Of a stretch of DNA of 61,112 bases, positions 9,511 to 58,015 are shown in pieces. The stretch is taken from positions 1 to 61,112 of the IMG/VR virus record IMGVR_UViG_3300009514_000026; one strand, 5' to 3'. The translations under genes were made by a program, and so were the position numbers. Below the pieces are notes generated by a model. The model searched no databases. It was given only the letters and a program-made list of their open reading frames with translations, and had not been told where the DNA came from. The stretch's first letter is position 1; the number at the start of each line of letters is the position of its first letter. This DNA comes from a virus. Its lineage: Duplodnaviria > Caudoviricetes.

Positions 9511-10092
9511 ATGTTTACACATCAAATTAAAAGTTTAAGGTCAGTCCAAGACCTAATGAAAGATAACATGCTGGTTAAACACTATGCAGGTTCCCTTGCG
9601 TATGGGACAAACCTCCCTACGTCTGATGTGGATTTTCGTGGTGTATTCTGTGCCGATCCTGTTAATGTTCGTACACCGTTTTTCACTGTGCGCGAATGTG
9701 AAGATGTGGCCGAAGAAGATACCAAATTGTATGAACTAGCACATTTTATGAAACTGTGTGTAGAATGCAATCCTAATATTGTAGAGACACTTTACGTAGA
9801 TGACAGTGATATTACATTTAGAACGCCAGCATATGATTTGCTTCGTGAACATCGCCATAAATTATTATCTTCTAAAATTGCATTTACTACATCTGGGTAT
9901 GCAATATCACAGCTTTCGCGAATGAAAAATGCTAAAAAGCATGTAAATTATTTGCCAGATTTGATTAAATTATGTGAAATATTATCTATATCTTTAAAAG
10001 ACGGCAATATTGATAAAGAATTTATAATTAACAATTGTGGTGATATGGTATTAAGTTTTATGGAAGAAAAAGGATATTGTGATAAATGTTAA
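9511..10092 (+). CDS. Pol-beta-superfamily nucleotidyltransferase, N-terminal part (T4 NrdC.11-like)
   Basis: GSLAYGTNLPTSDVDFRG catalytic motif, NPNIVE, GYAISQL. Confidence 0.8.
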   Translation: MFTHQIKSLRSVQDLMKDNMLVKHYAGSLAYGTNLPTSDVDFRGVFCADPVNVRTPFFTVRECEDVAEEDTKLYELAHFMKLCVECNPNIVETLYVDDSDITFRTPAYDLLREHRHKLLSSKIAFTTSGYAISQLSRMKNAKKHVNYLPDLIKLCEILSISLKDGNIDKEFIINNCGDMVLSFMEEKGYCDKC

Positions 10093-10156
10093 TACGCACA
10101 TAAAACGAATTGGTGGTCATTATCAGATAAACAATATGAAAGATTGAGGAATAATT

Positions 10157-10849
10157 ATGTTGACATCATTAGATCAACTTTTTGAACTACATTCATTAAA
10201 TGGTGATGAAAGAATACGAATGAAGAAGGTTTGTAAACCATTACAATATGTTTTTATATCCTTGATACAATATTTTGGTAGCGACAAAATGTTAAAGTTG
10301 GATATAAAACAGTGGAATGATAATCATCGGTTAATACCATATGGTAACAATATTTATGGTGTATATGCTGTACATGGATATAAGATATTTAATAGTAATG
10401 GTTCATTAAATACTACATTTGATGGTAATCGTGCAGATTTTAATAATCCTATAATGATTGTTAAATTTAATAAAGAAGAATATAATATAGCAAAAGAAGA
10501 ATATGATAAATTTTGGCAATGGCGCAATAATAGAAATCCGACAAGAATGGCAATGGAAGAATCTTTTAATTTTGATGGAAAGCACGCTATGCATCTTGTA
10601 AGACTGTTGCGTATGGGAGTGGAAGCGCTTCGGGATGAAGAAATTGTAGTTAAGCGTCCCGATGCACTTGAATTGCTTGAAATTCGTGGTGGTGCCTGGA
10701 CATATGAAGAAATTGTTGCATACGCAGAAAAGATGGATAAAGAAGTTCGTGAGGTTTGGTATAAGAAAACCAATCTTCCAAAACGCCCAGATCTTAAATT
10801 TGCTGCAGCCTTATTGATGGACGTGCAGGATTTAGTTTGGAATGGTTAG
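10157..10849 (+). CDS. Nucleotidyltransferase C-terminal part (separate ORF)
   Basis: FDGKHAMHLVRLLRMG and LLEIRGG motifs typical of the C-terminus of the same family; own GAGGA SD. Confidence 0.75.
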   Translation: MLTSLDQLFELHSLNGDERIRMKKVCKPLQYVFISLIQYFGSDKMLKLDIKQWNDNHRLIPYGNNIYGVYAVHGYKIFNSNGSLNTTFDGNRADFNNPIMIVKFNKEEYNIAKEEYDKFWQWRNNRNPTRMAMEESFNFDGKHAMHLVRLLRMGVEALRDEEIVVKRPDALELLEIRGGAWTYEEIVAYAEKMDKEVREVWYKKTNLPKRPDLKFAAALLMDVQDLVWNG

Positions 10850-30059: not shown

Positions 30060-30488
30060 TTAGTACCAAGTTCTTCCAACTGTTAAATGTAGTTTCCAAT
30101 TAGATGGAAAGCCAAATTCTTCACGAATTTGTATCAGTAGTGGGCAATCAACTTCCACGAACCAATAATGGTCTGGACGATCACCACCTGTAGTGTCACC
30201 ACTTTGACGAACATGATGTTTGTATCTAAACTTAATTTTTTGTCCATCGTACTTTTTCCAAAGATGCATTTTATCTTTGAGTGGTCGTTCACCACGGATG
30301 ATTGAAATATGCGCATCCCAAGAAGGTTGACACAAATCAATCCATTTTTCTTTTTTCACCCACCAACGATAGTAGCGCGTGATTTCTTTATCAACTTTTA
30401 CGATAGCCCACCAATCTGTTTTATGTTTCATGCCAGGACGTGGTGGATCGTATTTTATAATTCCAGTACTTTCGTGCCACATCTTCAA
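30060..30488 (-). CDS. 2H phosphoesterase
   Basis: AHISII and LHLTVG motifs. Confidence 0.75.
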   Translation of the reverse strand: MKMWHESTGIIKYDPPRPGMKHKTDWWAIVKVDKEITRYYRWWVKKEKWIDLCQPSWDAHISIIRGERPLKDKMHLWKKYDGQKIKFRYKHHVRQSGDTTGGDRPDHYWFVEVDCPLLIQIREEFGFPSNWKLHLTVGRTWY

Positions 30489-32124: not shown

Positions 32125-33150
32125 TTATTTCAGTTTGTTTACTTTTATGGGTTTGCCATGCAGCCAATGCGGGGTTGTCATTACATGATCTTTGCGCACA
32201 AACTTTCCAACTTTAAACCTAAATTGGCTCATGGGAAAAAAATCTGCTACGCGCATGACGTATCCCTCACAAGTATCATACATGGAACCATTCCATAAAT
32301 CAACAATAATTTTCTTGTCAAATATTCCATCATAAAGAATTGGAACATGGACTAGGTTAGGATGCAACATTTTGAACCATTCTAGTGTTTCATCCCATGA
32401 TAAACATTCATTTCTGTCATTCCAGATTGAGAAACCATAGAAGTAACTTAATAGTTCATCGTAGGGTATAGAATGTTCTGCGTACATGTTTTCACCACAC
32501 ACGCGCCAATCTTTTGGAATTTCATAATTAAACTGCGACCAGAAATTTTTAACCCAATCTCGACTAAGATGAGCACCACTATCCACAGATCGCGCATGGT
32601 TGTGATCGTTGTAAAAGGTTGTGTTTTCGCCGTCAAGTTTTTCGGTTACAATAACACGTTGACCAACAAAAGAATCAATGCTATCCATCATACGGTCATC
32701 GTCATTCATGCCTTCTGACCATGGCAAATGGTAAGTTCTTGGGTATTTAACATATCCCGTGAACAGATCCAGAACACCCCCCATACCAAGTATCTTTTGT
32801 ACACTTTTGTCAAAAAACAATTCACCTTTCAGACGTTGTGTATTTGGTAATACAATGTTACCCCACTTGTCGTAGATTTGATCGCCGTACAAATGTGGTG
32901 GAATGATTGGCTTTTCTATTCCAACTGCCTCGCGAACTTCTTCAACTGATATAGTTGTCATTTCACAAGCAAGGTGATGAAACTCGCAAAGGCTTGCACC
33001 ATTTGAAATGTAATAACCACCATCAGGCCATAAGCGCCTTTCTATAATGTGGTGTGCATCAACAGCAGGCTTATCACAAAAGACACAAGTATGATTATCG
33101 CGTTCAAAAACACCATTGTGAAAATTATCACGTGTTAATAACTTGTCCAT
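32125..33150 (-). CDS. HNH nuclease-like domain fused to RNA ligase (Rnl2-type)
   Basis: N-term CVFC...DAHH...NGASLC..HH; C-term KYPRT, TEKLDGEN, GEN, EGYV, KFVR. Confidence 0.85.
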   Translation of the reverse strand: MDKLLTRDNFHNGVFERDNHTCVFCDKPAVDAHHIIERRLWPDGGYYISNGASLCEFHHLACEMTTISVEEVREAVGIEKPIIPPHLYGDQIYDKWGNIVLPNTQRLKGELFFDKSVQKILGMGGVLDLFTGYVKYPRTYHLPWSEGMNDDDRMMDSIDSFVGQRVIVTEKLDGENTTFYNDHNHARSVDSGAHLSRDWVKNFWSQFNYEIPKDWRVCGENMYAEHSIPYDELLSYFYGFSIWNDRNECLSWDETLEWFKMLHPNLVHVPILYDGIFDKKIIVDLWNGSMYDTCEGYVMRVADFFPMSQFRFKVGKFVRKDHVMTTPHWLHGKPIKVNKLK

Positions 33151-34286: not shown

Positions 34287-34314
34287 ATAATTGTAGAAAT
34301 TGGTTAGACTATAT

Positions 34315-34405
34315 AATACCGCTGCTCTGCCAGACTGAGCTACACCCCAAAAGAAAATTTTTGGTTGGGGCGGTAGGAATCGAACCCACGACACGCGGTT
34401 CCTGA
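34315..34405 (-). tRNA. Circularly permuted tRNA gene (3' half precedes 5' half); anticodon probably NAG
   Basis: 3' half 34405-34362 (ACCGC, T arm, CGCCCCA-ACCA), 12-nt linker, 5' half 34349-34315 (TGGGGTG, D arm, GCGGT); halves complementary. Confidence 0.75.
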
Positions 34406-34446
34406 TTTAATTAGAAGGAAGTCAGAAACCATAGCTACAATATATT

Positions 34447-38815: not shown

Positions 38816-38893
38816 TGGTACTCTCGGTCGGATTCGAACCGACACATCAACTGGGTCTAAGCCAGCTCCCTCTGCCAATTGGGGTACGAGAGC
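38816..38893 (-). tRNA. tRNA-Leu(TAG), short variable loop
   Basis: Loop CT-TAG-AC, CCA. Confidence 0.85.
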
Positions 38894-39248: not shown

Positions 39249-39326
39249 TGGTACCCCACCTCGGATTCGAACCGAGAACCACAAGATTTTAAATCTTGCC
39301 GCAGCTGCCAATTAGCGTAGCGGGGC
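39249..39326 (-). tRNA. tRNA-Leu(TAA), short variable loop
   Basis: Loop TT-TAA-AA, CCA. Confidence 0.85.
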
Positions 39327-39356: not shown

Positions 39357-40145
39357 TTAGACTATTGTTAGTGAAGTTCCACATTCGGTACAGAATTTAG
39401 CTACTGCTTTATTCGTGCGGCCGCATGTAGTACATTTTGGTTTTGCCTTAACTGTAACAGGCTTTGTAACTTGTTGGTTGTCTTCTGTTTGTCCAAGCAT
39501 TTGAAGCACAATGACATGTGTTTCTGTTTCCGTTGGGAACCAGTCTGCATCTTTGAACGTTTGATCTGAAACAGAACCCGGTACAGTGATACCAGCATCG
39601 TTTAGATTAGCATCTGCACAAACATGATTAACATTAACAGAACCAGAGATATTGTTACTAATGCCGCCGGTATTGGCGCTATAATTAGCGTTATTTCCGA
39701 TGATACCGCGCCTTGCGTCGCTACCCGAAGTAAAAGTAAATTGATCGTTAGTCCATGGGTTATTCCAATATGTTGGATAAACATTTATTGGTTGTTGTTC
39801 AAAATTAAATTCAATACGAACTAAACCATCTTCAACACCAACACCACGGTTCTTTTCAATATTAGCAGTGCGTTCGATAAATTTGAACCGATTGCCTTTG
39901 TTAAGATTGCCATTTTTAATAAAACGTTCAAGTTCTACATTGCTATTTGCATTAACAACAAATTTTGTACCATCACCAACGTCAACACCATCAATTTCTA
40001 TCTTGACAAGTGCGCGAACGCCGTTAAGGTTTTTGATTAGAACTGAATATTCACTTCCGAAAGGAAGTCTTACTATTTCGCCAGATTCACGAAGAACCTG
40101 ACCGGCAGATTTGAGAGCTACTGCAAGCTTATTATTATACATCAT
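39357..40145 (-). CDS. Hypothetical protein with C-terminal zinc ribbon
   Basis: AAGGAG SD; CTTCG...FCTECG. Confidence 0.7.
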   Translation of the reverse strand: MMYNNKLAVALKSAGQVLRESGEIVRLPFGSEYSVLIKNLNGVRALVKIEIDGVDVGDGTKFVVNANSNVELERFIKNGNLNKGNRFKFIERTANIEKNRGVGVEDGLVRIEFNFEQQPINVYPTYWNNPWTNDQFTFTSGSDARRGIIGNNANYSANTGGISNNISGSVNVNHVCADANLNDAGITVPGSVSDQTFKDADWFPTETETHVIVLQMLGQTEDNQQVTKPVTVKAKPKCTTCGRTNKAVAKFCTECGTSLTIV

Positions 40146-40234
40146 GATTACTCCTTTTACAGTGCACAGACTAAGCACTCAAATGTTTAAAAGTCTGTTG
40201 GTCATGCGAAAGATGTGATTTCGCATAATTCTAT

Positions 40235-40804
40235 TTATACCTGTTTCATGGCGATGGACAATCGTGGTTCAGCAAGTCCTGTACCATATATCCAATCTAT
40301 ATTCTCATGGTGTCTTATACCATAAGAACCTAATTCTATTCCGTTTGTTTCGATGTCATAACTTTCATCGTCACGGTTATCAACAGTTTCCACAACAGTT
40401 GTCGAAACAAACTGTTCAAAGAACTGTCTTGCATCGTAAATCATCGTTTCCATGCTTGATGACCATTTCCACCATTTTCTTGTATAGTGAATAAGTTCAA
40501 CTTTCATAAAATATTTTTGATGAATTTCATCTTCATCATCGTTACGGAAACATGGTGTGATAGCGCAATATTTTCCTTCTTTTAGTTGACCAGTTCGAAT
40601 AAGATAAAGAAAAGATTGTTCCGCGCTTCCTACTAAGTACTTGTTAAGGTACATGTTATTAGTGAAATCAAAATTTGATGGCGTAGTGATCTTTAAGGCA
40701 TCTTTAGGAACTGTCCAAGGCACATCAATCAGTTTGTATCCTTGGTCTTGATAATATTCAAGTGCATCTACAAGCAATGCGTAATTAATCACTTCTAGTA
40801 CCAT
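40235..40804 (-). CDS. Stand-alone class II aminoacyl-tRNA synthetase-like catalytic domain
   Basis: GSAEQS, motif 2 TPCFR...FMKVEL, ELGS, motif 3 GTGLAEPRL. Confidence 0.7.
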   Translation of the reverse strand: MVLEVINYALLVDALEYYQDQGYKLIDVPWTVPKDALKITTPSNFDFTNNMYLNKYLVGSAEQSFLYLIRTGQLKEGKYCAITPCFRNDDEDEIHQKYFMKVELIHYTRKWWKWSSSMETMIYDARQFFEQFVSTTVVETVDNRDDESYDIETNGIELGSYGIRHHENIDWIYGTGLAEPRLSIAMKQV

Positions 40805-41036
40805 CGTCAAATGCACGTCTTGTTGCATCGGACATTATTTTTAAATCTTCCATGGTTAAGTCTGGAAAATGTTTTTCAAGATAACCACGAATGGCACCAT
40901 AGATATCTGATAATTCACACATTGCCATTATCTTGTTGTTTTGTTCAAGTGATTCTTTTAGTTCATCTAATTCTTCTTCAATCTTGGATATTTCACCAAA
41001 TTTACCACGCTTGATTTCTCTTAAATGATAAGCCAT
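40785..41036 (-). CDS. MazG-like nucleotide pyrophosphohydrolase
   Basis: KIEEELDE...ELSD. Confidence 0.55.
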   Translation of the reverse strand: MAYHLREIKRGKFGEISKIEEELDELKESLEQNNKIMAMCELSDIYGAIRGYLEKHFPDLTMEDLKIMSDATRRAFDDGTRSD

Positions 41037-41050
41037 TAATCACCTATAAT

Positions 41051-41134
41051 TGGTTGCGAGTGTGGGATTCGAACCCACGATGGGGGAGCTGCCCCTACTG
41101 CGGCCCATGGTGCCGCCATCAGCCAATCCTCGCG
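41051..41134 (-). ncRNA. D-armless initiator-like tRNA mimic
   Basis: C1xA72 acceptor, A-CCA, T arm, loop AC-CAT-GG, GATG/CATC helix instead of a D arm. Confidence 0.6.
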
Positions 41135-41143
41135 CTTGTTTAA

Positions 41144-41271
41144 AACGACGGCCAGCAACTCTCTTTTGGTTCCCAACTAGTGCACTTACAACTAAGAGTA
41201 TCGCGAATCGGTCTTGTTGTGACTGTTGATATGCTCATCGCCCCTGCTGGTGGGTATGTAATCGCGTCGTT
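41144..41271 (-). ncRNA. Unassigned structured RNA
   Basis: Closing helices AACGACG/CGUCGUU and CCAGCA/UGCUGG between tRNA genes. Confidence 0.45.
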
Positions 41272-41281
41272 AAATTTTATT

Positions 41282-41399
41282 TGGTACCGGCGGCGGGATT
41301 CGAACCCGCATGACGTTACCGTCGCTGGATTTTTTTAAGCATCCTTCTAAAAAGATGCTTCGTAAAAGTCCAGTGTGTATACCATTCCACCACACCGGC
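41282..41399 (-). tRNA. tRNA-Leu (probably TAA) with a 32-nt anticodon-loop intron
   Basis: Leu body with variable arm; hairpin insert about 41334-41365. Confidence 0.75.
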
Positions 41400-41432
41400 A
41401 TTAAACAATTGTCAATTGTGTACATTCGCCTT

Positions 41433-41642
41433 TTAGGCAGTTATACCCCGCATGGCTAATACTGTACGTGCTTTTGCATGATAGCGTTTTTGATCAACAC
41501 GTCCAAGAACAGTTTTCAGTGCTTCAGTTGTCATTTGAAGTGCAGATGTGCCAGTTTTGCGCGAACCAATACGAAACTTGCGCCTTACGTTAAATCTATG
41601 AATGGTATTTCCGTTTTTTATTACTTTGCGACCCTTTGGCAT
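41433..41642 (-). CDS. Small basic hypothetical protein
   Basis: 69 aa, AAGGG SD. Confidence 0.55.
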   Translation of the reverse strand: MPKGRKVIKNGNTIHRFNVRRKFRIGSRKTGTSALQMTTEALKTVLGRVDQKRYHAKARTVLAMRGITA

Positions 41643-41677
41643 TTTTATAACCCTTTAATTAGTTAATAAGAACATTA

Positions 41678-41917
41678 TTATTGAGATATTATATAGTCCT
41701 TTGACATAATTGTCAATAGTTGTTGTTTAGTTCGTTCGCGCTTAATCTTAATTGCCCAACAATTATACTTTTTATTAAAGTAAATTGAATTAACACTCTT
41801 GTTAATTTGATTACATATTGTAACCAATTTTTCTTTAGTATCACAAATTACATAATAATTTCCCCCTAAGCCTATTTTAAGTCTGGGTATTTCAAATGAC
41901 ATTAGCATTAAAGACAT
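41678..41917 (-). CDS. Hypothetical protein
   Basis: 79-aa ORF. Confidence 0.4.
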   Translation of the reverse strand: MSLMLMSFEIPRLKIGLGGNYYVICDTKEKLVTICNQINKSVNSIYFNKKYNCWAIKIKRERTKQQLLTIMSKDYIISQ

Positions 41918-41934
41918 ATATTTAATTTCCTATT

Positions 41935-42008
41935 TGGCGGACCGCCAGGGATTCGAACCCCGCACGCTGTAGTTTGGAGCCACGGCTGCTTACCCATGAG
42001 CGCGATCC
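41935..42008 (-). tRNA. Atypical tRNA with CCA (Trp) anticodon
   Basis: Loop CT-CCA-AA, G73-CCA, shrunken D arm, extended anticodon stem. Confidence 0.6.
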
Positions 42009-42222
42009 ATAAATAGTGACTTGACATTTCTGTACTAATAGCATGGTGTGAGAGGTCACCGAAAATTGTTATCGGGCTGACACAGTAAACCAACTAACTT
42101 GTTTAATTTCTTCCAACGTCATATCTTCTAACGCGGAATAGATAGCATCGTAAAGTGCTTTTGTTAGTTTTTCTTTGTTGTCTAAATAGAATTGATATGA
42201 CATGTTGTTGTCCTTATTAAAT

Positions 42223-42313
42223 TGGTAGCGGATGCAGGAGTCGAACCTGCTATCTTCAGCTTATGAGACTGAAATGATTCTGCTGTTAGGCATCTCCGTT
42301 TCACTCCCCCGCT
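42223..42313 (-). tRNA. tRNA-Met(CAT) with D-loop insertion
   Basis: Cloverleaf with 23-nt D loop containing TGC-CTAACA-GCA. Confidence 0.7.
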
Positions 42314-42319
42314 ATTGTT

Positions 42320-42394
42320 TGGCACCCACCACAGGATTCGAACCTGCATCCCTTTCGTTCGTAGCGAAAGACTCGTCCATTAAGCTAAGTGGGC
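42320..42394 (-). tRNA. tRNA-Arg(ACG)
   Basis: Loop CT-ACG-AA, CCA. Confidence 0.85.
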
Positions 42395-42433
42395 ATTGTT
42401 TAACACAATAAAAAAAATTTATTATGTTATGTT

Positions 42434-42508
42434 TGGTGGAACCTATCCGATTCGAACGGATGTCTCCTCCTCTTCAGGGAGGCGCTATGCCTACTCAGCT
42501 AAGGTTCC
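42434..42508 (-). tRNA. tRNA-Phe(GAA)
   Basis: Loop CT-GAA-GA, CCA. Confidence 0.85.
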
Positions 42509-43394
42509 ATTGTTTTAGAATTTCGTAGAATGTATTATATCCAGTTTTAGAACGAATTATATTACAAGCATTAAATGCTTTGCATAGTGTACCATGTTCA
42601 AGGTATGCTTCGTAGAGTTTTTGGAAATTATCTCTAACTTTATTAGGTCTTGAAAGTTGCTTACATGCATTTGAACAATAACGAACATTATGTTTTTTTG
42701 CGTTGAAAGACGTATGACATTTTTCACAAATATTAATGATTGGAGTTTTTTCTGTAGTACCACAATTCCAACCTTTATTCAAGTAGTCTAGTAAATCATC
42801 GCGTTTTATTTTCTTTGTATTGGTATCTTTATTTACCCATGCCCACTTTGTGCCATATTGAGAATTATTCTCACCAACACACTTTCCTTTTTTAGATTCT
42901 GATATTTTTCTCTTGGATTCTTCAGAATGTTTTTTGCCTGTCCAATCTGGAGGAGTACTTGTATTGCGTCCTTCTGCATAGGCAAGTTTACCAGATTTGC
43001 TTAATTTTTCAGATTTTCTTTTAACCCATTCTGCGTCATTTTCAAGCAACCGCTTTTGTGTTTCTTGACTTTTCTTGTTATTCTCTCTTTGTTGCTGTGA
43101 TGTCCATCCACCACCACCTTCACCACCTAATCTAATATTCATTGAAAATGGATCTTTTAATAAATTTTCATTAACTATGTTCCTTTCCATGTGAACCAAT
43201 TCTTCTCGCGTAGAAGCAATATGTGTTATTTCTTTTACATGGTTATCCTTCCCATACTTTTTCACAGAACGTTTGAGTATTAAACCAGAACCAAAATAGT
43301 CATCGTTTAAGTCATATGTAGTATGCATACCAATATAATACTTGTTAGTAATAATATTAGTTATTTTATAAATGTAATGATGTTGTTTCCGCAT
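42495..43394 (-). mobile_element. Free-standing GIY-YIG homing endonuclease (Seg-like) with NUMOD3
   Basis: YIYKITN...YYIG, YFGSG, GKKHSEESKRKIS. Confidence 0.85.
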
Positions 43395-43397
43395 CGT

Positions 43398-43455
43398 GTC
43401 GTACACCTTTGTATTCTATAAGTGTATTTATCACTAGAATACAAAGGTGTACGAC
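43398..43455 (-). promoter_or_regulatory. 21-bp perfect inverted repeat with a late promoter in the loop
   Basis: GTCGTACACCTTTGTATTCTA at 43398-43418 and its complement at 43435-43455; ATAAATA in the loop. Confidence 0.75.
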
Positions 43456-43520
43456 CAGATTCGAACTGGCATCTTTCTGATTCACAGTCAGAGACTTTAA
43501 CCAATTAAGCTACATACACC
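43446..43520 (-). tRNA. tRNA-His(GTG)
   Basis: G-1:C73, loop CT-GTG-AA, no encoded CCA. Confidence 0.88.
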
Positions 43521-43598
43521 ATAACGGGAAGTCTGGACCACGCTATAACGGTATCGGTCATCCCCCGCAAGCTAATCACTTCCCATATTTAAATTCGT

Positions 43599-43770
43599 TG
43601 CGACTTATGACCACCGAAGTGTATCTGCGCCCCGTTTAATCATCTATGGGCTTCAACTCCACAGCCCAAGACAGTAACCCAATACTTGCCCGAGGCAGTC
43701 GCATAGGTTTCCCAAGTTATGAGCAAGGTACTATTCCCAATTGATGCTACACTTGCGTGCTTAGATGATT
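43599..43770 (-). ncRNA. Unassigned multi-pseudoknot RNA
   Basis: AAUCAUCUA/UAGAUGAUU, AAGUGUA/UACACUU, UGCGACU/AGUCGCA, UGGGCU/AGCCCA pairings. Confidence 0.6.
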
Positions 43771-43774
43771 TACT

Positions 43775-43850
43775 TGGCACCGGCGAGGGGAATCGAACCC
43801 CCCTATATCTCGCAGACAACGAGTTGCAATGCCCAGATTGCTACGCCGGT
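43775..43850 (-). tRNA. tRNA-Asp(GTC)
   Basis: Loop TT-GTC-TG, G73-CCA. Confidence 0.75.
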
Positions 43851-43857
43851 AAAATTT

Positions 43858-43996
43858 AAAAGAACAGTTACGAGGTGTTAAGGCGTATCAGCTATGTGAC
43901 CACATGGGTAGCGTGGCGCGATGGCAACCCACCGTTTGTGAATTGTTATTCCACCGCCATTCCCTTAATCTTTCTTCAGCGTGTACCCTGTTCTTT
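43858..43996 (-). ncRNA. Unassigned structured RNA
   Basis: Closing helix AAAGAACAG/CUGUUCUUU, inner UUAAGG/CCUUAA. Confidence 0.45.
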
Positions 43997-44001
43997 GTTT
44001 T

Positions 44002-44086
44002 TGGAGCAGGCGACGCGACTCGAACGCGCAGTGTCTTTCGACGGCAGCTTGGAAGGCTGCTAGGTTACCATTACCGATACGCCTGC
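44002..44086 (-). tRNA. tRNA-Gly(TCC) with long variable arm
   Basis: Loop CT-TCC-AA, GTC-GAAA-GAC arm, U73-CCA. Confidence 0.8.
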
Positions 44087-44154
44087 TTTTCATTCCAATG
44101 TTCCTTTTTATGACAATTACTACAAAGCACTATACACTTATTCATTTCATTGTT

Positions 44155-44232
44155 TGGTACCACAGACGAGACTCGAACTCGCATCTTCAAGCTTGAAAGG
44201 CTTGCGTTCTATTCCATTTAAACTACTGTGGT
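44155..44232 (-). tRNA. tRNA-Glu(TTC)
   Basis: Loop CT-TTC-AA, CCA. Confidence 0.85.
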
Positions 44233-44245
44233 ATTTGTTTGAATT

Positions 44246-45310
44246 TTACGCAGGAACACGGCGTTGTATTTGTGAAACAACAAAGGCTAATTCTTGAGAG
44301 TTAAGGGACTTTGCTATTTTAGTAATTTGTTTAACAGCTTTTGATGCTGTTCCTTCAGCTTTGGTTGCTGCAGCACCGCCAGCGATTGCAGTTACACCTG
44401 TGCTTAATGCTTTTGTTATATCTTTTAGATTTTCACCAGAAGCCTTTGCTTCTTGGAATGCAGTTTGAAGCGCTTTTTGATCATTAGTAAACTGGTCGAA
44501 GAAAGCACGAATCTGGTATCCTACTTCCTTTTTAGCATCTATACTGCCCGCATCCCCCCAAGCATTTAATAATTTTTGAGCTTCATCCACTTGGTCAGCT
44601 GGAATATAGTGATCCCATGTAACAGAGGACATATTAAATACTGATTGGCTGGTGCTGGTGGCTTCAAACTTGCCCGACAGATGCATTACTTCATCCCCCA
44701 AAATAGCTTCTTTAATGTCTAATGCTAGTCGTCCTGCCCCCTCAAAAAAATCTGCCAGCGCCGATGCGCCCATACCAACAAGAGAACCAACAACACCAAC
44801 AGTAGCGGCTTTACCAAGTGCAGTACTTGCTCGCTCGCCTTTGGCTAAACCAATAGCTGTTCTTAACGCGCCACCTACGGCCATACCAAGCGCCGGAGTC
44901 CCTAATACAGATGTTAAGCCTGATAGGACACCAATAATAAATGCTGTTTTCTTTGGATGTTCTTGACCAATTTTACCCAGCCCGCGCGCCATTTGAACTG
45001 CTTTGTGATTGTCACCAAGTTTGGCTTTATAATTGTCAATTATTTTATCAATTTTGGTATCAAAGTTTTGTACTGGTTGAGTATCTTGTAATTTTTTAGC
45101 AGCGGTTTTAACAAAAGCAGCAATTTTTCCAGCGCCAGTAGCCGCCACCTTTGCACCTTTAGCAGCCATACCAACAGCTTTCTTTGCACCAGCAAACATA
45201 CCAGCTTCATTCATTCGGTACATTTCGAGGATTACTTCATTGATATCATCGCGGCCTTCAACGAGAACAATTTCGTTATTGTTGAAGCTATTGAGTTCTT
45301 GTAGTTTCAT
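44246..45310 (-). CDS. Late Ala/Gly-rich protein with hydrophobic segments (possible ejected protein)
   Basis: MKLQEL start, ...MNEAG site, two hydrophobic stretches. Confidence 0.55.
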   Translation of the reverse strand: MKLQELNSFNNNEIVLVEGRDDINEVILEMYRMNEAGMFAGAKKAVGMAAKGAKVAATGAGKIAAFVKTAAKKLQDTQPVQNFDTKIDKIIDNYKAKLGDNHKAVQMARGLGKIGQEHPKKTAFIIGVLSGLTSVLGTPALGMAVGGALRTAIGLAKGERASTALGKAATVGVVGSLVGMGASALADFFEGAGRLALDIKEAILGDEVMHLSGKFEATSTSQSVFNMSSVTWDHYIPADQVDEAQKLLNAWGDAGSIDAKKEVGYQIRAFFDQFTNDQKALQTAFQEAKASGENLKDITKALSTGVTAIAGGAAATKAEGTASKAVKQITKIAKSLNSQELAFVVSQIQRRVPA

Positions 45311-45473
45311 TCTGCTTACCAGTTGTGGCTTTTTCACGATGTGCATTAACTAAAGGACGTAAAATACTACTACGTTCTTTTGGATTTTTTTTTAGATAAG
45401 CCACGATCTTCTGTACAAGTTGTGTTAATTGGGCTTTTCTATCTGCTTCTATTAATAGTTCACAAACTTTCAT
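45288..45473 (-). CDS. Small late protein
   Basis: TAAATA; MKVCELLIE. Confidence 0.5.
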   Translation of the reverse strand: MKVCELLIEADRKAQLTQLVQKIVAYLKKNPKERSSILRPLVNAHREKATTGKQNETTRTQ

Positions 45474-45502
45474 AATATTATTTATGGTTTGGTAATTTAA
45501 TT

Positions 45503-45586
45503 TGGTACAGCGGACGGGATTCGAACCCGCGAACCGTTAGGACTAGATTGAAAGTCTAGCTTCTTTAGCCACTTGAATACCACTGT
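45503..45586 (-). tRNA. tRNA-Glu(TTC) with enlarged variable region
   Basis: Loop CT-TTC-AA; 12-nt variable region. Confidence 0.75.
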
Positions 45587-45669
45587 ATAATATTTTGGGG
45601 ACTGACAAAGGGATTAGCCTTTTATTTCACTGTGTCGCGACATTCTCAGACAGACCAGTCCATCGTATT

Positions 45670-45762
45670 TGGTGGTTTCCCGAGGATTTGAACCTCACGC
45701 CCAACCGCCCCCACTTCTTTTGGAAGGCAACGGTTTTACAGACCGCCGTGGGGAAAGGAAAC
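45670..45762 (-). tRNA. D-armless, rearranged tRNA-Tyr(GTA)-like RNA
   Basis: GGTTCCT acceptor, loop CT-GTA-AA, only 9 nt in place of the D arm, CCCCAC/GTGGGG helix, A73-CCA. Confidence 0.65.
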
Positions 45763-45833
45763 CTTTTAATGGTCAACACACCGTTTCGGACTATAAATAC
45801 ATTAAAGTAACCTGAATGTTAACCTATGAATAA

Positions 45834-46298
45834 TTTGTCAAATCGTCCACAAAATTTGCATCAAGATACCACAAAAAATACTGTGATTCTTGTTCTCCGA
45901 ACATTAGACATTATAGAACACGTGCTAAATTTGAATTTAATGTGTATGAATATCCGAACGAATTTGATCTGACGCTTATTGAAAAACACGGTTGGTATTC
46001 ACCGAATGGATATAAGCGTCGCAATAAATCACCAAATTTAACTGGTATTTCACGTGATCATCTGTATACCGTTCATGATGGTTTTCACAATAATGTAGAT
46101 CCCATGCTTTTGTCACACCCTACTAATTGTAAACTTATTCCACACAATGGCAAAAATGGTAACAATAGTAAAAACAATAAAAGTTCTATATCATTGGATG
46201 AACTTAAAAAACGAATATCTTTATGGGATAAAAATATTTTTAATTGGAAGCCCTGCCTGGAATTGAACCAGAATCTCAACATTCAAAGTGTTGCGTGA
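45834..46298 (+). pseudogene. HNH-type homing endonuclease, N-terminally disrupted
   Basis: SRDH...HPTNC...HN..N motif; frame open back to a TAA near 45831, with the nearby ATG out of frame. Confidence 0.55.
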
Positions 46299-46320
46299 TA
46301 AGCCATTACACCACAAGGCC
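46245..46320 (-). tRNA. tRNA-Gln(TTG)
   Basis: Loop CT-TTG-AA, CCA. Confidence 0.8.
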
Positions 46321-46326
46321 ATTGTT

Positions 46327-46404
46327 TGGTCAGGATGACAGTACTCGAAACTGCATGATATCTTCGCCCCAAACGAAGTGGCTTGCCTCTTAGCCCACAC
46401 CCTG
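46327..46404 (-). tRNA. tRNA-Pro(TGG)
   Basis: C1-G72, A73, loop TT-TGG-GG. Confidence 0.85.
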
Positions 46405-46456
46405 TTTATTTTAGTCTGTATTGGTTCGTTTGGATTTCAAATCCATAAATACAGAC

Positions 46457-47017
46457 ATGTCTAAAAAAGAAAATTTAATTAATATAAACCATAGCAAATT
46501 CAAAGAACTTACTGGATCATGTACCACAAAAGCAGAACTTCATGCTAAGTTAGAAGTTCCCGTAAATGGAACATATACGAGAATCGTCAATAAACTTATG
46601 GTTGATACAAACGCCAAGTTAAGACCCAAAAAATTAAAATATAATTTAATTATAAAAACTTGTCCAGTTTGTGGTGATGAATTTGTGCATTACGAAAATC
46701 ATCCAAGACCTAAAACTACTTGTTCATATGCATGTTCTAATAAACATTTTCGTTCTGGTACAAATAACGGTAACTATGATCCAACCAAATATAGAAATGT
46801 TTGTTTTGAACATCATGAAAAAGAATGCATCATATGTAAAGAAAATAGAATCGTTGATGTTCACCACCATGATGGTAACCATGATAACAATGAACCATCA
46901 AATTTAATACCGCTGTGTCCTACGCATCACACTTTATATCATAGTAGATTTCGTGATGACGTATTACCATATATCGAACAATATCGTAAGACCTTTATAA
47001 AATCTTACGACAATTAA
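46457..47017 (+). mobile_element. HNH homing endonuclease, antisense to the tRNA array
   Basis: CPVC...CSYAC, CIIC, VHHHDGNHDNN...NLIPLCPTHH; TAAATA upstream. Confidence 0.85.
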
Positions 47018-47018
47018 T

Positions 47019-47093
47019 TGGTCACCGTACTTGGATTCGAACCAAGACCGCTACGCTCCAGACGTACTATGCTGCCATTAACACCATGCGGAG
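47019..47093 (-). tRNA. tRNA-Pro(TGG), atypical (C33)
   Basis: Loop TC-TGG-AG, CCA. Confidence 0.6.
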
Positions 47094-47097
47094 ATAA

Positions 47098-47173
47098 TGT
47101 GGGCAGTTGGATTTCATACCAACAATTTCTTTCGTAGAGAAATGCTGTCCTATGAAGGTTAGACTATACCCAC
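47098..47173 (-). pseudogene. Degenerate tRNA-like sequence (ACG loop)
   Basis: GTGGGTA/TGCCCAC acceptor, loop CT-ACG-AA, aberrant D and T loops. Confidence 0.45.
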
Positions 47174-47177
47174 TAAG

Positions 47178-47278
47178 TCGGGATGGTAGGATTTGAACCT
47201 ACAACTTCACCGCCCCTTTAAATGCCCTCATTGAAGACACTTAAAACGGCGCACTCTACCAGATTGAGCTACACCCCG
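47178..47278 (-). tRNA. tRNA-Pro(TGG) with a 27-nt anticodon-loop intron
   Basis: CGGGGTG Pro body; removing 47217-47243 restores TT-TGG-GG. Confidence 0.75.
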
Positions 47279-47319
47279 AAATTGTTTACTAAATTTTATA
47301 CCTTTCCTTCCTATCTTTC

Positions 47320-47480: not shown

Positions 47481-47523
47481 CTTCTGCTTTTCAATTCTAA
47501 GTCGCTTTTCGCGGCTTTCCAAA

Positions 47524-56887: not shown

Positions 56888-58015
56888 TTACTCTTCTATT
56901 ACCTTTTCATCTTTAAGACCAAAGGACTTCCATGCTTTCTTCATGACCTCCTTATAAGAAAAGTCTTTACCAAGATACTTGTTCATAGCCAAACCAAACT
57001 GCATTCTATTCAATTCTTCTTGACCAAGAATAGCATAGTCTTTACGTTCCAGTTCTTTGTTACGTTCATAGAAACGTTCAACGGTATCAACCAAGTGGTT
57101 GTATCGTACTTCAACGAATGCTTCCATTTCACTAATCAACTTGATAGCAAGTGGATCATCGTGGAATAAAGAACGCATATCGTCAGTAGCTTCTTCCAAT
57201 ACAGCTTCATACAATCGACGTGGTGTGTTGATTGAATCCTTTGTATGGTGCAAAGCCAAGTACCAAGTACACTTTTTCTTTACGCGCTGACCAGATGCAA
57301 GTTGGAACACGACACCTTCAACGCCTTGCATGTCATCAACAGAATTAATGTATGCTTCTGGATCTTCTGGACGCATCAATAATGTCCAACGTGCCAATGT
57401 TTCTGGAAAGTGATCAGCATCAATATCATAGAAGTCATAGTACGAACCATCTTCACGGTTACGCACGCCAAGAACTTTCAAGTGTGGTTCCATGTAAGGT
57501 AATACGATACGGTTGTCAGGCGCACACCATTCCATAATGACAGTGCAACCTGCACGATCCATCAAATACAGTTCTTCACGGAACGAAACGTTTTCGCCTT
57601 TATGCAACCACAACTTAGCAGCAATGGCCTGATCGGAAGTCAAAGAACCCTTCGTCTTCACGCGAAGAATATCATTGTGCATGTATGTAGTGATTAAAGA
57701 ACCATCAGCCTTATCAGCAACTTCTACAACCGTAGACAAATCCAAGTCCATAGTAAATGGATTTTCATATAAGTTGAAAAACTTTGGAAATGGTAAGGAT
57801 GCCAAACGAATTGGTTCACCATCTTCTGTGATTTCAAACATTATACCACGGCACTCCAAAGCATTTGGCTTACAGAAATCCGTATAAGAAGCCAAACGAT
57901 AATTGAACAGGCGATAAGTAGCACCATCCAATTCAACATCATTGAAAAAGAATGCTTCGTTGTCAGCAACCAGCCGAATCAAGTCTTCAAATATTTTTGT
58001 CTGGTATTCATTCAT
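56888..58015 (-). CDS. rnlA: RNA ligase 1 (T4 Rnl1/gp63-like)
   Basis: ECRG, KFFN, KADGSL, NRIV, EGVV, WY..LH..K. Confidence 0.9.
   Translation of the reverse strand: MNEYQTKIFEDLIRLVADNEAFFFNDVELDGATYRLFNYRLASYTDFCKPNALECRGIMFEITEDGEPIRLASLPFPKFFNLYENPFTMDLDLSTVVEVADKADGSLITTYMHNDILRVKTKGSLTSDQAIAAKLWLHKGENVSFREELYLMDRAGCTVIMEWCAPDNRIVLPYMEPHLKVLGVRNREDGSYYDFYDIDADHFPETLARWTLLMRPEDPEAYINSVDDMQGVEGVVFQLASGQRVKKKCTWYLALHHTKDSINTPRRLYEAVLEEATDDMRSLFHDDPLAIKLISEMEAFVEVRYNHLVDTVERFYERNKELERKDYAILGQEELNRMQFGLAMNKYLGKDFSYKEVMKKAWKSFGLKDEKVIEE

What the first reader, a model, noticed from the sequence alone, without database searches (positions are those of the whole stretch)
41282..41399. tRNA-Leu with a 32-nt hairpin intron of the same design
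The body is a classical Leu tRNA whose anticodon loop holds AAGCAUCUUU/AAGGAUGCUU. A 34/35 junction gives CU-UAA-AA, and the insert again ends in UUAAA, matching the Pro case. The homopolymer runs make the junction ambiguous: shifted cuts would give UUA (ochre suppressor) or UUU on a Leu body. With the permuted gene, this points to one anticodon-splicing system with three substrates (inference).
Basis: partly seen in the sequence, partly recalled or inferred. Interest (0 to 1): 0.7.

Follow-up and report, generated by a model that had tools for sequence, protein, structure and literature searches.

The report
Hairpin mini-intron in phage leucine tRNA
A leucine tRNA gene of a large T4-like phage is split exactly inside its anticodon by a 32-base hairpin that cannot splice itself; the same kind of insert sits at the same spot in other phage tRNA genes, which points to an undescribed and still unproven cut-and-rejoin way of splicing tRNA in bacterial viruses.

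Summary
On the minus strand, 41399 to 41282, lies a well-formed class II leucine-type tRNA gene (Rfam 48.6 bits). It carries 32 extra bases in the anticodon loop, and these form a 10-bp hairpin.

Intronless relatives place the insert exactly between U34 and A35, so removing it gives anticodon UAA, which reads TTA, the phage's commonest Leu codon. ARAGORN's Lys(UUU) call assumes the 37/38 position. It fails the family test: three more Leu-type genes with the same build (two IMG/VR contigs, one metagenome contig) would become Arg, stop or Phe under ARAGORN's intron placements, whereas the 34/35 cut gives UAA in 4 of 4.

The window's proline gene (47278-47178) has a 27-base hairpin at the same site. 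In all 5 genes the 3' junction lies 13 nt after the hairpin loop, and the stems differ by compensatory changes.

The insert is neither a group I intron nor a bulge-helix-bulge intron. My best reading is a protein-spliced mini-intron resealed by the phage's T4-type RNA ligase 1. The nuclease is unknown; host RNase III fits only partly. No RNA data were available, so splicing is not shown.

The "permuted gene" looks more like a Y-RNA-like or permuted tRNA-like RNA than a third substrate. Earlier notes of this scan describe the same class on other DNA.

The parts
41282..41399 (-). Whole tRNA gene: class II Leu-type body, A73, encoded CCA, 32-nt insert in the anticodon
   Evidence: Rfam tRNA 48.6 bits; ARAGORN with introns allowed; cloverleaf plus hairpin in the fold
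41366..41399 (-). Exon 1: tRNA positions 1-34, ending C32 U33 U34 (41368-41366)
   Evidence: Alignment with intronless Leu(UAA/UAG) genes
41334..41365 (-). 32-nt hairpin insert (mini-intron). 5' flank TTACG 41365-41361; stem 41360-41351 pairs with 41346-41337; loop TTAG 41350-41347; 3' flank AAA 41336-41334
   Evidence: Sequence; folds; boundaries from the homolog alignment. Runs of T and A make the cut register ambiguous in this gene alone.
41282..41333 (-). Exon 2: A35 A36 A37 A38, the anticodon-stem 3' strand, a 15-nt variable arm with a 4-bp stem, the T arm, the acceptor 3' strand, A73 and CCA
47178..47278 (-). Second substrate: Pro-type tRNA gene (C1-G72, A73). Exon 1 is 47278-47244, the 27-nt hairpin insert is 47243-47217, exon 2 is 47216-47178. 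The cut between U34 and G35 gives anticodon UGG.
   Evidence: Rfam 53.6 bits with a 28-nt local insertion; 14-bp continuous helix; alignment with 5 intronless Pro(UGG) genes; its three nearest tRNAs are all Pro
56888..58015 (-). T4 RNA ligase 1 (gp63) homolog, the candidate sealing enzyme
   Evidence: Pfam RNA_lig_T4_1 (2.9e-19) plus T4_Rnl1_C (3.7e-19); PHROG 562, 5.7e-106; PDB 2c5u and 9do4 at E about 1e-65 over the full length, with the KxDG lysine aligned
32125..33150 (-). Second ATP-dependent RNA ligase (PF09414) with an N-terminal HNH-like region, lying inside the tRNA array
   Evidence: The fusion type is described for jumbo phages in PMC7824862 (passages read). No PDB sequence match.
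30060..30488 (-). 2H phosphoesterase, a possible healer of 2',3'-cyclic phosphate ends
   Evidence: Pfam 2H-SAK 7.5e-6, just under its cut-off; PHROG 12204
9511..10849 (+). RlaP-type nucleotidyltransferase of RNA-repair systems, in two adjacent ORFs (9511-10092 and 10157-10849)
   Evidence: Pfam RlaP 1.4e-8; PHROG 388 matches the N and C halves on the two ORFs
34287..34440 (-).
   Evidence: Rfam YrlA 38.2 bits (gathering score 69), model positions 23-85; a weak hit to permuted tmRNA; fold

Best explanation
The gene encodes a precursor of tRNA-Leu(UAA) that carries a 32-nt hairpin mini-intron exactly between the wobble base U34 and A35. It belongs to a small family of 27-36-nt hairpin inserts at this site in phage tRNA genes.

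The insert is far too small to be a ribozyme intron. I infer that proteins remove it. An endonuclease makes two cuts at the base of the hairpin, one after U34 and one 13 nt past the hairpin loop. The two tRNA halves, held together by the cloverleaf, are then sealed across the anticodon loop by the phage's T4-type RNA ligase 1 (56888-58015).

If the nuclease leaves cyclic-phosphate ends, the phage's kinase and 2H/phosphoesterase genes could heal them first. The nuclease is not identified. A double-strand-specific enzyme of the RNase III type from the host is the leading candidate, but only a candidate.

Shown: the gene, the hairpin, its exact site, the family and its covariation, and the ligase gene.
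Inferred: excision, the cut chemistry, the enzymes, and the mature anticodon UAA.
For: 1. The tRNA body is intact and of Leu type. Rfam gives 48.6 bits. There is a 15-nt variable arm with a stem, and A73. The D arm is identical to that of a Vibrio phage tRNA-Leu. 49 of the 50 nearest tRNAs are Leu.

2. Intronless homologs, including tRNA-Leu(UAA) of the 363-kb relative G002, align with a single gap at CTT|AAAA.

3. Three further Leu-type genes have a hairpin insert at the same site:
- L285: 1 clean case among the 46 stretches of a metagenome scan that asked only for the D arm, a gap and the T arm.
- G007 and G008: 2 of the 9 stretches of an IMG/VR scan that asked only for exon motifs and gaps.
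The cut at 34/35 gives UAA in 4 of 4. ARAGORN's own intron placements give Lys, Arg, stop and Phe.

4. All 5 genes (4 Leu and the window's Pro) share one architecture:
- a 10-12-bp uninterrupted stem;
- 13 nt from the loop end to the 3' junction in 5 of 5, while the 5' distance varies from 11 to 16 nt;
- a conserved 5' flank YTACG in 3 of the 4 Leu genes.

5. Covariation. Indexed from the 3' junction, 50 of 50 stem cells are standard pairs, and 9 of 10 positions show two-sided changes. 0 of 20,000 partner shuffles reach 50 (mean 36.8, maximum 47). Because each hairpin was folded on its own, pairing is partly by construction. The shared register is the real result.

6. Demand. TTA is the commonest Leu codon (321 of 938) and CCA the commonest Pro codon (240 of 437). 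This is the only class II gene in the window that can give UAA. G007's 20-kb array has no other Leu(UAA) gene.

7. A sealing enzyme is on board. The Rnl1 homolog is full length, has the tRNA-specific C-terminal domain, and keeps the KxDG lysine.

8. Geometry. In the Pro gene the two junctions lie in a continuous 14-bp helix, staggered by 2 bp, so the excised piece is 11 bp with a 2-nt 3' overhang. That is the RNase III product form (the form itself is established knowledge). In 4 of 5 genes U33 and U34 can pair with the last two intron bases.

9. Phage specificity. The exon-motif scan found 0 such genes among 87 stretches from 185,579 cellular species genomes.
Against: - No RNA evidence. No sequencing run could be listed.
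- The insert is sporadic. The nearest relatives have no ortholog with it. Among 173 Rfam tRNA matches in G001-G006 only two exceed 100 nt, and both have another build. Such a distribution also fits a selfish or recent insertion.
- The window has a second gene with anticodon UAA (39249-39326, on a class I body) and two intronless Pro(UGG) genes, so the split genes may be dispensable.
- No nuclease was identified.
  - RNase III (PF14622) is absent from the window, from G001 and G007, and from two complete relatives (0 of 5), so the enzyme would have to be the host's.
  - The RNase III register needed in this gene costs 5.4 kcal/mol against the best fold (-12.1 against -17.5).
  - G008 has a U-U mismatch there.
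  - In the Leu genes a 3-5-nt unpaired flank lies at the 5' cut.
- Rnl1 is found in 4 of 5 relatives, including three without such inserts. It has an accepted role in repairing tRNAs cut by host nucleases (PMC7824862, passages). Its presence is therefore not specific evidence.
Confidence: 0.55

Rival explanations
1. The insert is never removed. The hairpin-bearing molecule works as it is, for example as a decoy or sponge for host anticodon nucleases, or as a chargeable but non-decoding Leu-tRNA. LeuRS does not read the anticodon (established knowledge).
For: - The body and hairpin are conserved with covariation. That shows selection on the RNA but does not prove excision.
- The exon end plus the 5' flank imitates other anticodon loops: CTTTTAC (Lys-like) in the window and G008, and CTTCTAC (Arg-UCU-like) in G007. 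This is why ARAGORN names them so.
- Intronless genes with the same anticodons exist in the window.
- The phage invests heavily in tRNA repair.
Against: - In all 5 genes the bases either side of the insert rebuild exactly the cognate 7-nt loop of the body's own isotype: UAA in four Leu genes and UGG with G37 in the Pro gene. A decoy has no need for that.
- ProRS needs G35 and G36 in place (established knowledge).
- G007 has no other Leu(UAA) gene in its array.
Confidence: 0.18
2. A small palindromic DNA element inserted into the anticodon and inactivated the gene. The two split genes are young pseudogenes tolerated because intronless copies exist.
For: - Sporadic distribution among relatives.
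- Redundant UAA and UGG genes in the window.
- Homing-endonuclease genes lie in the array (42495-43406 and 46421-47017).
Against: - Four Leu genes from four different contigs keep perfect cloverleaves, although their hairpin stems have diverged at 8 of 10 positions by two-sided changes with none broken. That amount of time should have degraded a dead tRNA.
- The Rfam scores of the split genes (48.6 and 53.6 bits) lie within the range of the intact genes of the window.
- The insertion site is identical to the base in two isotypes.
Confidence: 0.12
3. The intron sits at the canonical 37/38 position (ARAGORN's call). The product is a UUU-anticodon tRNA on a Leu body, either a Lys tRNA with an extra arm or a Lys-to-Leu miscoding tRNA. 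With a one-base shift it would be a UUA ochre suppressor.
For: - ARAGORN calls tRNA-Lys(ttt) with a 32-nt intron.
- No other Lys tRNA is in the window, and AAA is the commonest codon counted (657 of 12,520).
- In the lowest-energy register an RNase III-like stagger would give the loop CTTTTAA (my derivation).
Against: - The same reading turns the homologous genes into Arg(UCU), a stop reader and Phe. UUU and UUA are impossible in L285 and G007.
- The body is of Leu type, and none of the 19 Lys tRNAs appears among its 50 nearest.
- TAA ends 27 of 34 checked ORFs, and reading stops through does not merge ORFs in a way that suggests recoding. An ochre suppressor would be harmful.
Confidence: 0.06
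4. It is a known intron type: a degenerate group I intron, or an archaeal-type bulge-helix-bulge intron cut by an EndA-like enzyme and joined by RtcB.
For: - The site U34/A35 is the site of the cyanobacterial and plastid tRNA-Leu(UAA) group I intron (recalled).
- One suboptimal register of this gene (-14.9 kcal/mol) draws a 3-nt bulge, a 4-bp helix and a 3-nt bulge.
Against: - It is 32 nt long and ends in A, and there is no Rfam group I hit in the window.
- The BHB-like register, cut by the BHB rule, would leave an 8-nt loop.
- The Pro, L285 and G007 arms show no BHB.
- No EndA or RtcB domain appears among the 87 ORFs scanned. The window is only a fragment.
Confidence: 0.02

Closest known systems
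'Enigmatic' introns in tRNA genes of Lak megaphages (Devoto et al. 2019, PMC6784885; passages read, Table S6 positions)
   Same: Inserts in the anticodon loop of tRNA genes of very large phages. They are too short for self-splicing introns, are conserved between genomes, and have no known removal mechanism.
   Different: - The 14 numbered intron ranges in Table S6 are 23-141 nt long, and 12 of them are 76 nt or more. A 15th entry gives no range.
- They were placed by tRNAscan's eukaryote mode; that this means about position 37/38 is my inference.
- At least one may itself encode a tRNA, according to the paper.
- The inserts here are plain 27-36-nt hairpins, placed by homolog alignment between 34 and 35, with a fixed 13-nt distance from the loop to the 3' junction.
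Group I intron of tRNA-Leu(UAA) in cyanobacteria and plastids (recalled; review PMC3984707 seen only in a search listing)
   Same: The same tRNA species and the same insertion point, after the wobble U34.
   Different: That intron is a self-splicing ribozyme of about 200 nt or more with a terminal G. Here there are 32 nt, no catalytic core, the last base is A, and Rfam gives no hit.
Archaeal and eukaryal protein-spliced tRNA introns (bulge-helix-bulge; EndA/Sen plus RtcB or Trl1). Definitions recalled; PMC4090602 seen only in a search listing.
   Same: Short introns without catalytic activity. An endonuclease removes them, a ligase joins the halves, and the tRNA body holds the halves together. 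The phage's set of Rnl1-type ligase, kinase and 2H esterase parallels the three activities of fungal Trl1.
   Different: There is no BHB motif and the position is not 37/38. No splicing endonuclease is known in bacteria or found here. The host is presumably bacterial, since the phage is T4-like.
T4 anticodon-loop repair: the host nuclease PrrC cuts tRNA-Lys 5' of the wobble base, and T4 Pnkp and Rnl1 heal and seal the break (established knowledge; jumbo-phage repair sets in PMC7824862, passages read)
   Same: The same ligase family with the same tRNA-specific domain. The nick to be sealed lies in the anticodon loop, one base away from the T4 case.
   Different: Repair restores a broken tRNA. 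Here two programmed cuts would have to remove 32 nt first.
YrlA, the bacterial Y-RNA-like RNAs with a tRNA-like module, and permuted (two-piece) tmRNA genes.
   Same: The order stem, T arm, acceptor hairpin, D arm, stem matches YrlA model positions 23-85. The segment from the T arm through ACCA and the spacer to the acceptor 5' strand resembles a permuted tmRNA gene.
   Different: The score of 38.2 bits is below the gathering score of 69. No Ro/TROVE gene was seen in the window. The acceptor loop carries ACCA like a true tRNA end.

Membership tests
Bacterial class II tRNA-Leu | Cloverleaf with a long variable arm that forms a stem, and discriminator A73 | tested here: met
   15-nt variable arm with a 4-bp stem; A73 followed by CCA
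Bacterial class II tRNA-Leu | The body resembles known Leu tRNAs more than other isotypes | tested here: met
   With the anticodon masked, 49 of the 50 nearest among 404 ARAGORN-called tRNAs are Leu, and 0 of the 19 Lys appear. The set is biased: 136 of the 404 are Leu. BLAST hits in named phages are annotated tRNA-Leu.
Bacterial class II tRNA-Leu | A Leu anticodon in a 7-nt loop with U33 and a purine at 37 | tested here: inconclusive
   Present only if the 32 nt between U34 and A35 are removed, which gives the loop CTTAAAA. Removal is not shown.
Group I intron | Catalytic core (P3-P9, roughly 200 nt or more) and a terminal G | tested here: not met
   32 nt long, ends in A, and no Rfam group I match in the window at either threshold
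Bulge-helix-bulge (archaeal-type) tRNA intron | Two 3-nt bulges separated by a 4-bp helix, with cuts that leave a 7-nt loop | tested here: not met
   The lowest-energy folds of all five arms lack it. The only BHB-like register, in this gene at -14.9 kcal/mol, would give an 8-nt loop under the recalled cutting rule.
Bulge-helix-bulge (archaeal-type) tRNA intron | A splicing endonuclease (EndA) and an RtcB ligase available | tested here: inconclusive
   Neither domain appears among the 87 ORFs of the window, but the record is estimated to be 18% complete.
Lak-type 'enigmatic' phage tRNA introns | A non-ribozyme insert in the anticodon loop of a tRNA gene of a large phage, conserved between genomes | tested here: met
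   the definition comes from PMC6784885.
Lak-type 'enigmatic' phage tRNA introns | Size and content as listed in Table S6: mostly 76-141 nt, at least one with a tRNA-like part | tested here: not met
   The inserts here are 27-36-nt plain hairpins.
Hairpin mini-introns at U34|N35 (a working class; described in this scan's notes, not in print as far as I searched) | A 10-12-bp hairpin inserted directly after U34. The flanks rebuild the cognate loop. The 3' junction lies 13 nt after the hairpin loop. | tested here: met
   5 of 5 genes
RNase III substrate | The two cuts lie across a helix with a 2-bp stagger, giving a 2-nt 3' overhang | tested here: inconclusive
   Clean in the Pro gene. Possible in the window's Leu gene, in G007 and in L285 if U33 and U34 pair with the last two intron bases. 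Mismatched in G008. The register needed here is 5.4 kcal/mol above the optimum.
T4 RNA ligase 1 (for ORF 56888-58015) | Adenylyltransferase domain with the KxDG lysine, plus the tRNA-specific C-terminal domain | tested here: met
   Both Pfam domains; aligned along its full length to PDB 9do4 and 2c5u at E about 1e-65, with the lysine in KADG opposite KEDG. That this lysine is the adenylylation site is recalled.

The most novel reading that the evidence does not exclude
Bacterial viruses have their own protein-based tRNA splicing pathway. Hairpin mini-introns placed after the wobble U34 are measured from their loop and cut out by a double-strand-specific nuclease, probably the host's RNase III. 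The anticodon loop is then resealed by phage RNA ligase 1.

If so, the 'repair' ligase of T4-like phages is also a splicing enzyme. The phage could tie the maturation of its tRNAs for its commonest Leu and Pro codons to the expression of its own ligase, or keep the precursors out of reach of host anticodon nucleases.
Probability: 0.3. Interest if true: 0.85.

Novelty: new variant of a known kind. Interest (0 to 1): 0.68.

Why it matters
Protein-dependent tRNA splicing is regarded as a trait of archaea and eukaryotes. In bacteria and phages only self-splicing introns are established, and the short phage tRNA introns reported in 2019 were left as "enigmatic".

This window, with three homologs found here, gives an exact and testable rule for one class of them: the insert follows U34, the 3' junction lies 13 nt after the hairpin loop, and the flanks rebuild the cognate anticodon. 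It also names a ligase candidate.

If splicing is confirmed, three things follow:
- tRNA gene finders are misnaming these genes as Lys, Arg, Phe or suppressor tRNAs.
- Phage Rnl1 gains a second biological role.
- A new route of tRNA maturation in bacteria can be studied with ordinary laboratory strains.

If the inserts are never removed, they mark a family of structured tRNA-derived RNAs of unknown use.

Tried and rejected
- **Expression data.** No sequencing run could be listed for 40000-48000, and no RNA holder was listed.
- **Exact exon strings in IMG/VR.** 0 stretches for the 24-nt 5' string and 0 for the 28-nt 3' string.
- **BLAST of the gene against G001-G004 and G006.** Only T-arm and 3'-end matches, and no ortholog with the insert. 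BLAST against the loci then held (L001-L031) gave the same result.
- **A motif built from what the Leu and Pro hairpins share.** This is inconclusive because the scan was cut off.
- **The same motif tied to a T arm.** The calls were dominated by ordinary tRNA-Leu(taa) (95 ARAGORN calls). ARAGORN called 4 introns, none of this design.
- **D-arm, gap and T-arm scan of IMG/VR.** 7 stretches, none a hairpin insert at 34/35. They are Leu-like genes with other odd middle parts.
- **The same scan of metagenomes.** 46 stretches and one clean case (L285). Several other Leu-like genes carry inserts of another or unclear build (L277, L292, L298, L297/L310, L304). I did not resolve these and left them out of the five-gene table.
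- **RNase III as a phage gene.** 0 of 5 records.
- **Co-occurrence with Rnl1.** 4 of 5 relatives have it whether or not they have inserts, so there is no signal.
- **The idea that the window's Leu and Pro hairpins are closer to each other than to hairpins of other phages.** Rejected: 5 identical pairs against 3, 5 and 5.
- **Recoding of stop codons.** Rejected.
- **Bulge-helix-bulge and group I.** Rejected; see the membership tests.
- **Literature.** Five searches found no paper on short hairpin introns at 34/35 in phage tRNAs, or on RNase III plus Rnl1 splicing. Only listings were seen, apart from PMC6784885 and PMC7824862. Subscription journals are not covered.
- **Not run.** Structure prediction of the HNH-ligase protein, because the fusion is already described.
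Full report
**What is there.** The finding lies on the minus strand. Read from 41399 down to 41282, it is a 118-nt tRNA gene with an encoded CCA.
- Rfam's tRNA model matches 41285-41399 at 48.6 bits (gathering score 29) over all 71 positions, with one local insertion of 33 nt in the anticodon loop.
- Default ARAGORN does not see the gene (30 genes). With introns allowed it reports c[41282,41399] with a 32-nt intron.
- 39 nt lie between the anticodon-stem strands (CTGGA and TCCAG).
- The arm folds at -17.5 kcal/mol against -5.8 +/- 2.3 for shuffles (0 of 200 fold as well). The whole gene folds as a cloverleaf with the hairpin on top of the anticodon stem.

**Context.** The window is the whole record held (61,112 bases). 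CheckV estimates it at 18% of a genome.
- It is a fragment of a large T4-like phage. It encodes a gp32-like protein, a RecA/UvsX-like protein, a gp23-like capsid protein, ribonucleotide reductase and a DnaB-like helicase. G+C is about 37%.
- It uses the standard code: 27 of 34 checked ORFs end in TAA, and reading stop codons through does not merge ORFs in a telling way.
- About 22 kb (25.2-47.3 kb) hold more than 30 tRNA genes on the minus strand.
- Related contigs of 100-600 kb exist in IMG/VR.

**Identity of the tRNA.**
- The body has a 15-nt variable arm with a 4-bp stem, A73, and a D arm identical to that of a Vibrio phage tRNA-Leu(UAG).
- BLAST hits in named phages are annotated tRNA-Leu.
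- With the anticodon masked, 49 of its 50 nearest neighbours among 404 ARAGORN-called tRNAs from all sequence held are Leu, and none of the 19 Lys tRNAs appears. The set is rich in Leu (136 of 404).

**Where the insert sits.**
- Five intronless relatives were aligned with this gene. They include the tRNA-Leu(UAA) of G002, the complete 363-kb relative. The alignment has a single gap between CTT and AAAA, that is between U34 and A35.
- In this gene alone the T and A runs allow other registers. Loops giving UUA or UUU are equally possible on sequence grounds.
- ARAGORN chooses the canonical place and calls the gene tRNA-Lys(UUU).

**Homologs decide the register.**
- A metagenome scan asked only for the D-arm 3' end, a gap of 40-70 nt and a T arm. 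It returned 46 stretches. One of them (L285) is a Leu-type gene with the same D arm and a 33-nt hairpin at the same place.
- An IMG/VR scan asked only for exon motifs and gaps. It returned 9 stretches. Two are further cases: G007 (a 20-kb contig with about 30 tRNA genes) and G008.
- In L285 and G007 the base after CTT is C, so UUA and UUU cannot arise.
- The cut at 34/35 gives UAA in 4 of 4 genes. ARAGORN's own intron placements name them Lys, Arg, stop and Phe.
- The same holds for the window's proline-type gene (47278-47178, 53.6 bits). Five intronless Pro(UGG) genes align with one 27-nt gap at TTT|GGGG. The product loop has anticodon UGG and G37. The three nearest tRNAs are all Pro.
- I conclude that the inserts lie between 34 and 35, and that the intended products are tRNA-Leu(UAA) and tRNA-Pro(UGG).
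- These would read TTA (321 of 938 Leu codons) and CCA (240 of 437 Pro codons), the commonest codons of their boxes in 36 ORFs of the window.

**A family with a rule.** The five inserts are 32, 32, 36, 33 and 27 nt long.
- Each is one uninterrupted stem of 10-12 bp.
- The loop has 3-4 nt (10 nt in G008).
- The unpaired 5' flank has 0-5 nt.
- The 3' flank has 1-3 nt.
- The distance from the 5' junction to the loop varies (15, 15, 13, 16 and 11 nt). The distance from the loop end to the 3' junction is 13 nt in 5 of 5.
- Three of the four Leu inserts begin with the motif YTACG.
- Indexed from the 3' junction, positions 4-13 are paired in all five genes (50 of 50 cells). Nine of the ten positions show two-sided changes.
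- No shuffle of partners reaches 50 (0 of 20,000; mean 36.8, maximum 47).
- Because each hairpin was folded on its own, pairing as such is partly by construction. What is not by construction is that one register fits all five genes, and that the stems have diverged almost completely while the cloverleaves stayed perfect.
- The exon-motif scan over one genome for each of 185,579 cellular species gave 87 stretches and no such gene.

**What it is not.**
- It is not a group I intron. It has 32 nt, its last base is A, and Rfam gives no such hit at either threshold. The site U34/A35 is, however, the site of the classical tRNA-Leu(UAA) group I intron (recalled).
- It is not a bulge-helix-bulge intron. 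The best folds of the five arms lack the motif. The one BHB-like register of this gene (-14.9 kcal/mol) would leave an 8-nt loop under the recalled cutting rule.
- No EndA or RtcB domain is among the 87 ORFs scanned.

**How it might work (inferred).** A 32-nt hairpin cannot catalyse its own removal by any known ribozyme fold, so proteins must cut and rejoin.

*Joining.*
- ORF 56888-58015 is a full-length homolog of T4 RNA ligase 1. It has both Pfam domains, including the tRNA-specific C-terminal one. It matches PDB 2c5u and 9do4 at E about 1e-65, and the KxDG lysine is aligned.
- The T4 enzyme seals anticodon-loop nicks one base away from this site (established knowledge).
- The window also holds a second ligase (PF09414) with an HNH-like head inside the tRNA array, a 2H phosphoesterase, a small P-loop kinase, a metallophosphoesterase and an RlaP nucleotidyltransferase.
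- Ends with a cyclic phosphate could therefore be healed, as well as 5'-phosphate/3'-OH ends.
- This is the known jumbo-phage RNA-repair set (PMC7824862, passages). Rnl1 is found in 4 of 5 relatives whether or not they have such inserts. Its presence is permissive evidence, not specific evidence.

*Cutting.*
- In the Pro gene the loop and insert form a continuous 14-bp helix. The two junctions lie across it with a 2-bp stagger, so the excised piece is 11 bp with a 2-nt 3' overhang. That is the RNase III product form.
- In 4 of 5 genes U33 and U34 can pair with the last two intron bases, which puts the two cuts on either side of a 2-bp helix. G008 has a U-U mismatch there.
- In the Leu genes a 3-5-nt unpaired flank sits at the 5' cut.
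- In this gene the required register is 5.4 kcal/mol above the optimum.
- No RNase III gene is in the window, G001, G007, or the complete relatives G002 and G003 (0 of 5). The enzyme would have to be the host's.
- The constant 13 nt suggests a nuclease that measures from the hairpin loop, but common descent of the inserts could also explain it.
- I put about 0.55 on "spliced by cut and ligation to give tRNA-Leu(UAA)", and about 0.3 on RNase III plus Rnl1 specifically.

**Against splicing.**
- There are no RNA data.
- The inserts are sporadic. Among 173 Rfam tRNA matches in six related records only two exceed 100 nt, and both have a different build.
- G002 has an intronless tRNA-Leu(UAA) and Pro(UGG) where this phage has split ones.
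- The window has another gene with anticodon UAA and two intronless Pro(UGG) genes.
- The rivals are an unspliced functional RNA (decoy or non-decoding tRNA), a young pseudogene made by a palindromic insertion, and the Lys or suppressor readings. They are weighed in their own sections.

**The "three substrates" inference.** The permuted gene (about 34440-34287, minus strand) has this order: T arm, acceptor 3' strand with ACCA, a 12-nt spacer, acceptor 5' strand, D arm.
- It matches the tRNA-like module of Rfam YrlA (38.2 bits, E 2.9e-7 locally, below the gathering score of 69), and weakly a permuted tmRNA.
- Its 5' and 3' flanks pair into a long interrupted stem, as in Y RNAs.
- Its anticodon-side ends do not show the hairpin geometry. 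The leader helix lies about 20 nt from the would-be 3' junction.
- I therefore count two substrates of one design in this window, not three.

**Literature and earlier notes.**
- Short phage tRNA introns were reported as "enigmatic" in Lak megaphages (PMC6784885; passages, Table S6). Those are mostly 76-141 nt long.
- Five full-text searches gave no paper on hairpin inserts at 34/35 in phage tRNAs, or on an RNase III plus ligase route. Subscription journals are not covered.
- Earlier notes of this scan describe the same class in other phage genomes: Thr(UGU) genes with 32- and 28-nt hairpins, and a pair with 21-nt hairpins. They propose the same enzymes.
- I had reached the RNase III idea on my own and noted it. 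Either way those notes are unchecked leads and not independent evidence.

**Verdict.**
- Splicing, its enzymes and the third substrate are not shown.
- The finding is a new variant of the poorly understood phage tRNA introns. It comes with an exact rule that makes the question testable at the bench.

Noticed in passing
window 39249-39326, 38816-38893, 34208-34286 (minus strand): Three tRNA genes with Leu anticodons (UAA, UAG, CAA) have class I bodies of 78-79 nt with a short variable loop, unlike bacterial tRNA-Leu. Whether LeuRS charges them is open.
   Followed up: partly
window about 41050-41135 (minus strand), just downstream of the Leu gene: A T-arm hairpin followed by a 5-bp acceptor-like stem and AACCA, with a long GC-rich insert upstream. 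It is a tRNA-like or minihelix-like element that neither tRNA finder calls.
   Followed up: no
window 45674-45763, 41940-42035, 42226-42284, 30728-30782, 27697-27776, 47098-47173 (minus strand): Further odd tRNA-like genes that score below or near the Rfam cut-off. One has a GUA (Tyr) anticodon arm enclosed by a CCCCAC/GUGGGG helix in place of a D arm. One is CAU-anticodon tRNA-like with a 31-nt D region. One is Trp-like and only 59 nt long. One is a GAU-anticodon piece whose acceptor 5' strand I could not find.
   Followed up: partly
window 28463-28554 (minus strand): A tRNA-Ile(UAU) of 92 nt with a long, stem-forming variable arm, which is unusual for Ile.
   Followed up: no
window 40235-40828 (minus strand): A small (197 aa) class II aminoacyl-tRNA-synthetase-like protein lies 450 nt downstream of the Leu gene. 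PHROG 4806 ('histidyl tRNA synthetase') matches at 1.4e-52; Pfam tRNA-synt_2 matches weakly. G001 has it at 71% identity, where an intronless tRNA-Pro lies upstream.
   Followed up: partly
L001:3986-4059 (G001) and L331:12513-12587 (G007): Relatives carry a tRNA with anticodon CUA (an amber-suppressor type, which ARAGORN labels 'Pyl'). None was found in the window.
   Followed up: no
L025:3383-3495 (G001); L029, G002 positions 22999-23109 and about 21090-21170: Other long or degenerate tRNA genes in relatives. One is a Thr-like gene with a 37-39-nt insert that contains a T-arm-like hairpin. One is a 111-nt gene with a very long variable region. One is a decayed Leu-like gene whose 3' 31 nt are 90% identical to this one.
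   Followed up: partly
metagenome and IMG/VR loci L273-L310 and L315-L321: Many genes have a Leu-type D arm and T arm but an abnormal middle part: extended anticodon stems, 4-nt 'anticodon' loops, or inserts without a hairpin. This is a wider set of Leu-derived tRNA-like RNAs in environmental sequence.
   Followed up: partly
window 9511-10092 and 10157-10849 (plus strand): The RlaP-type nucleotidyltransferase is split over two adjacent ORFs that match the N and C halves of one PHROG family. This may be a frameshift, an intervening element or a true two-gene form.
   Followed up: no
L331:17147-17281 (G007): ARAGORN calls a 135-nt tRNA gene with a 59-nt insert here. Part of the stretch is masked (N), so I could not analyse it.
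   Followed up: partly
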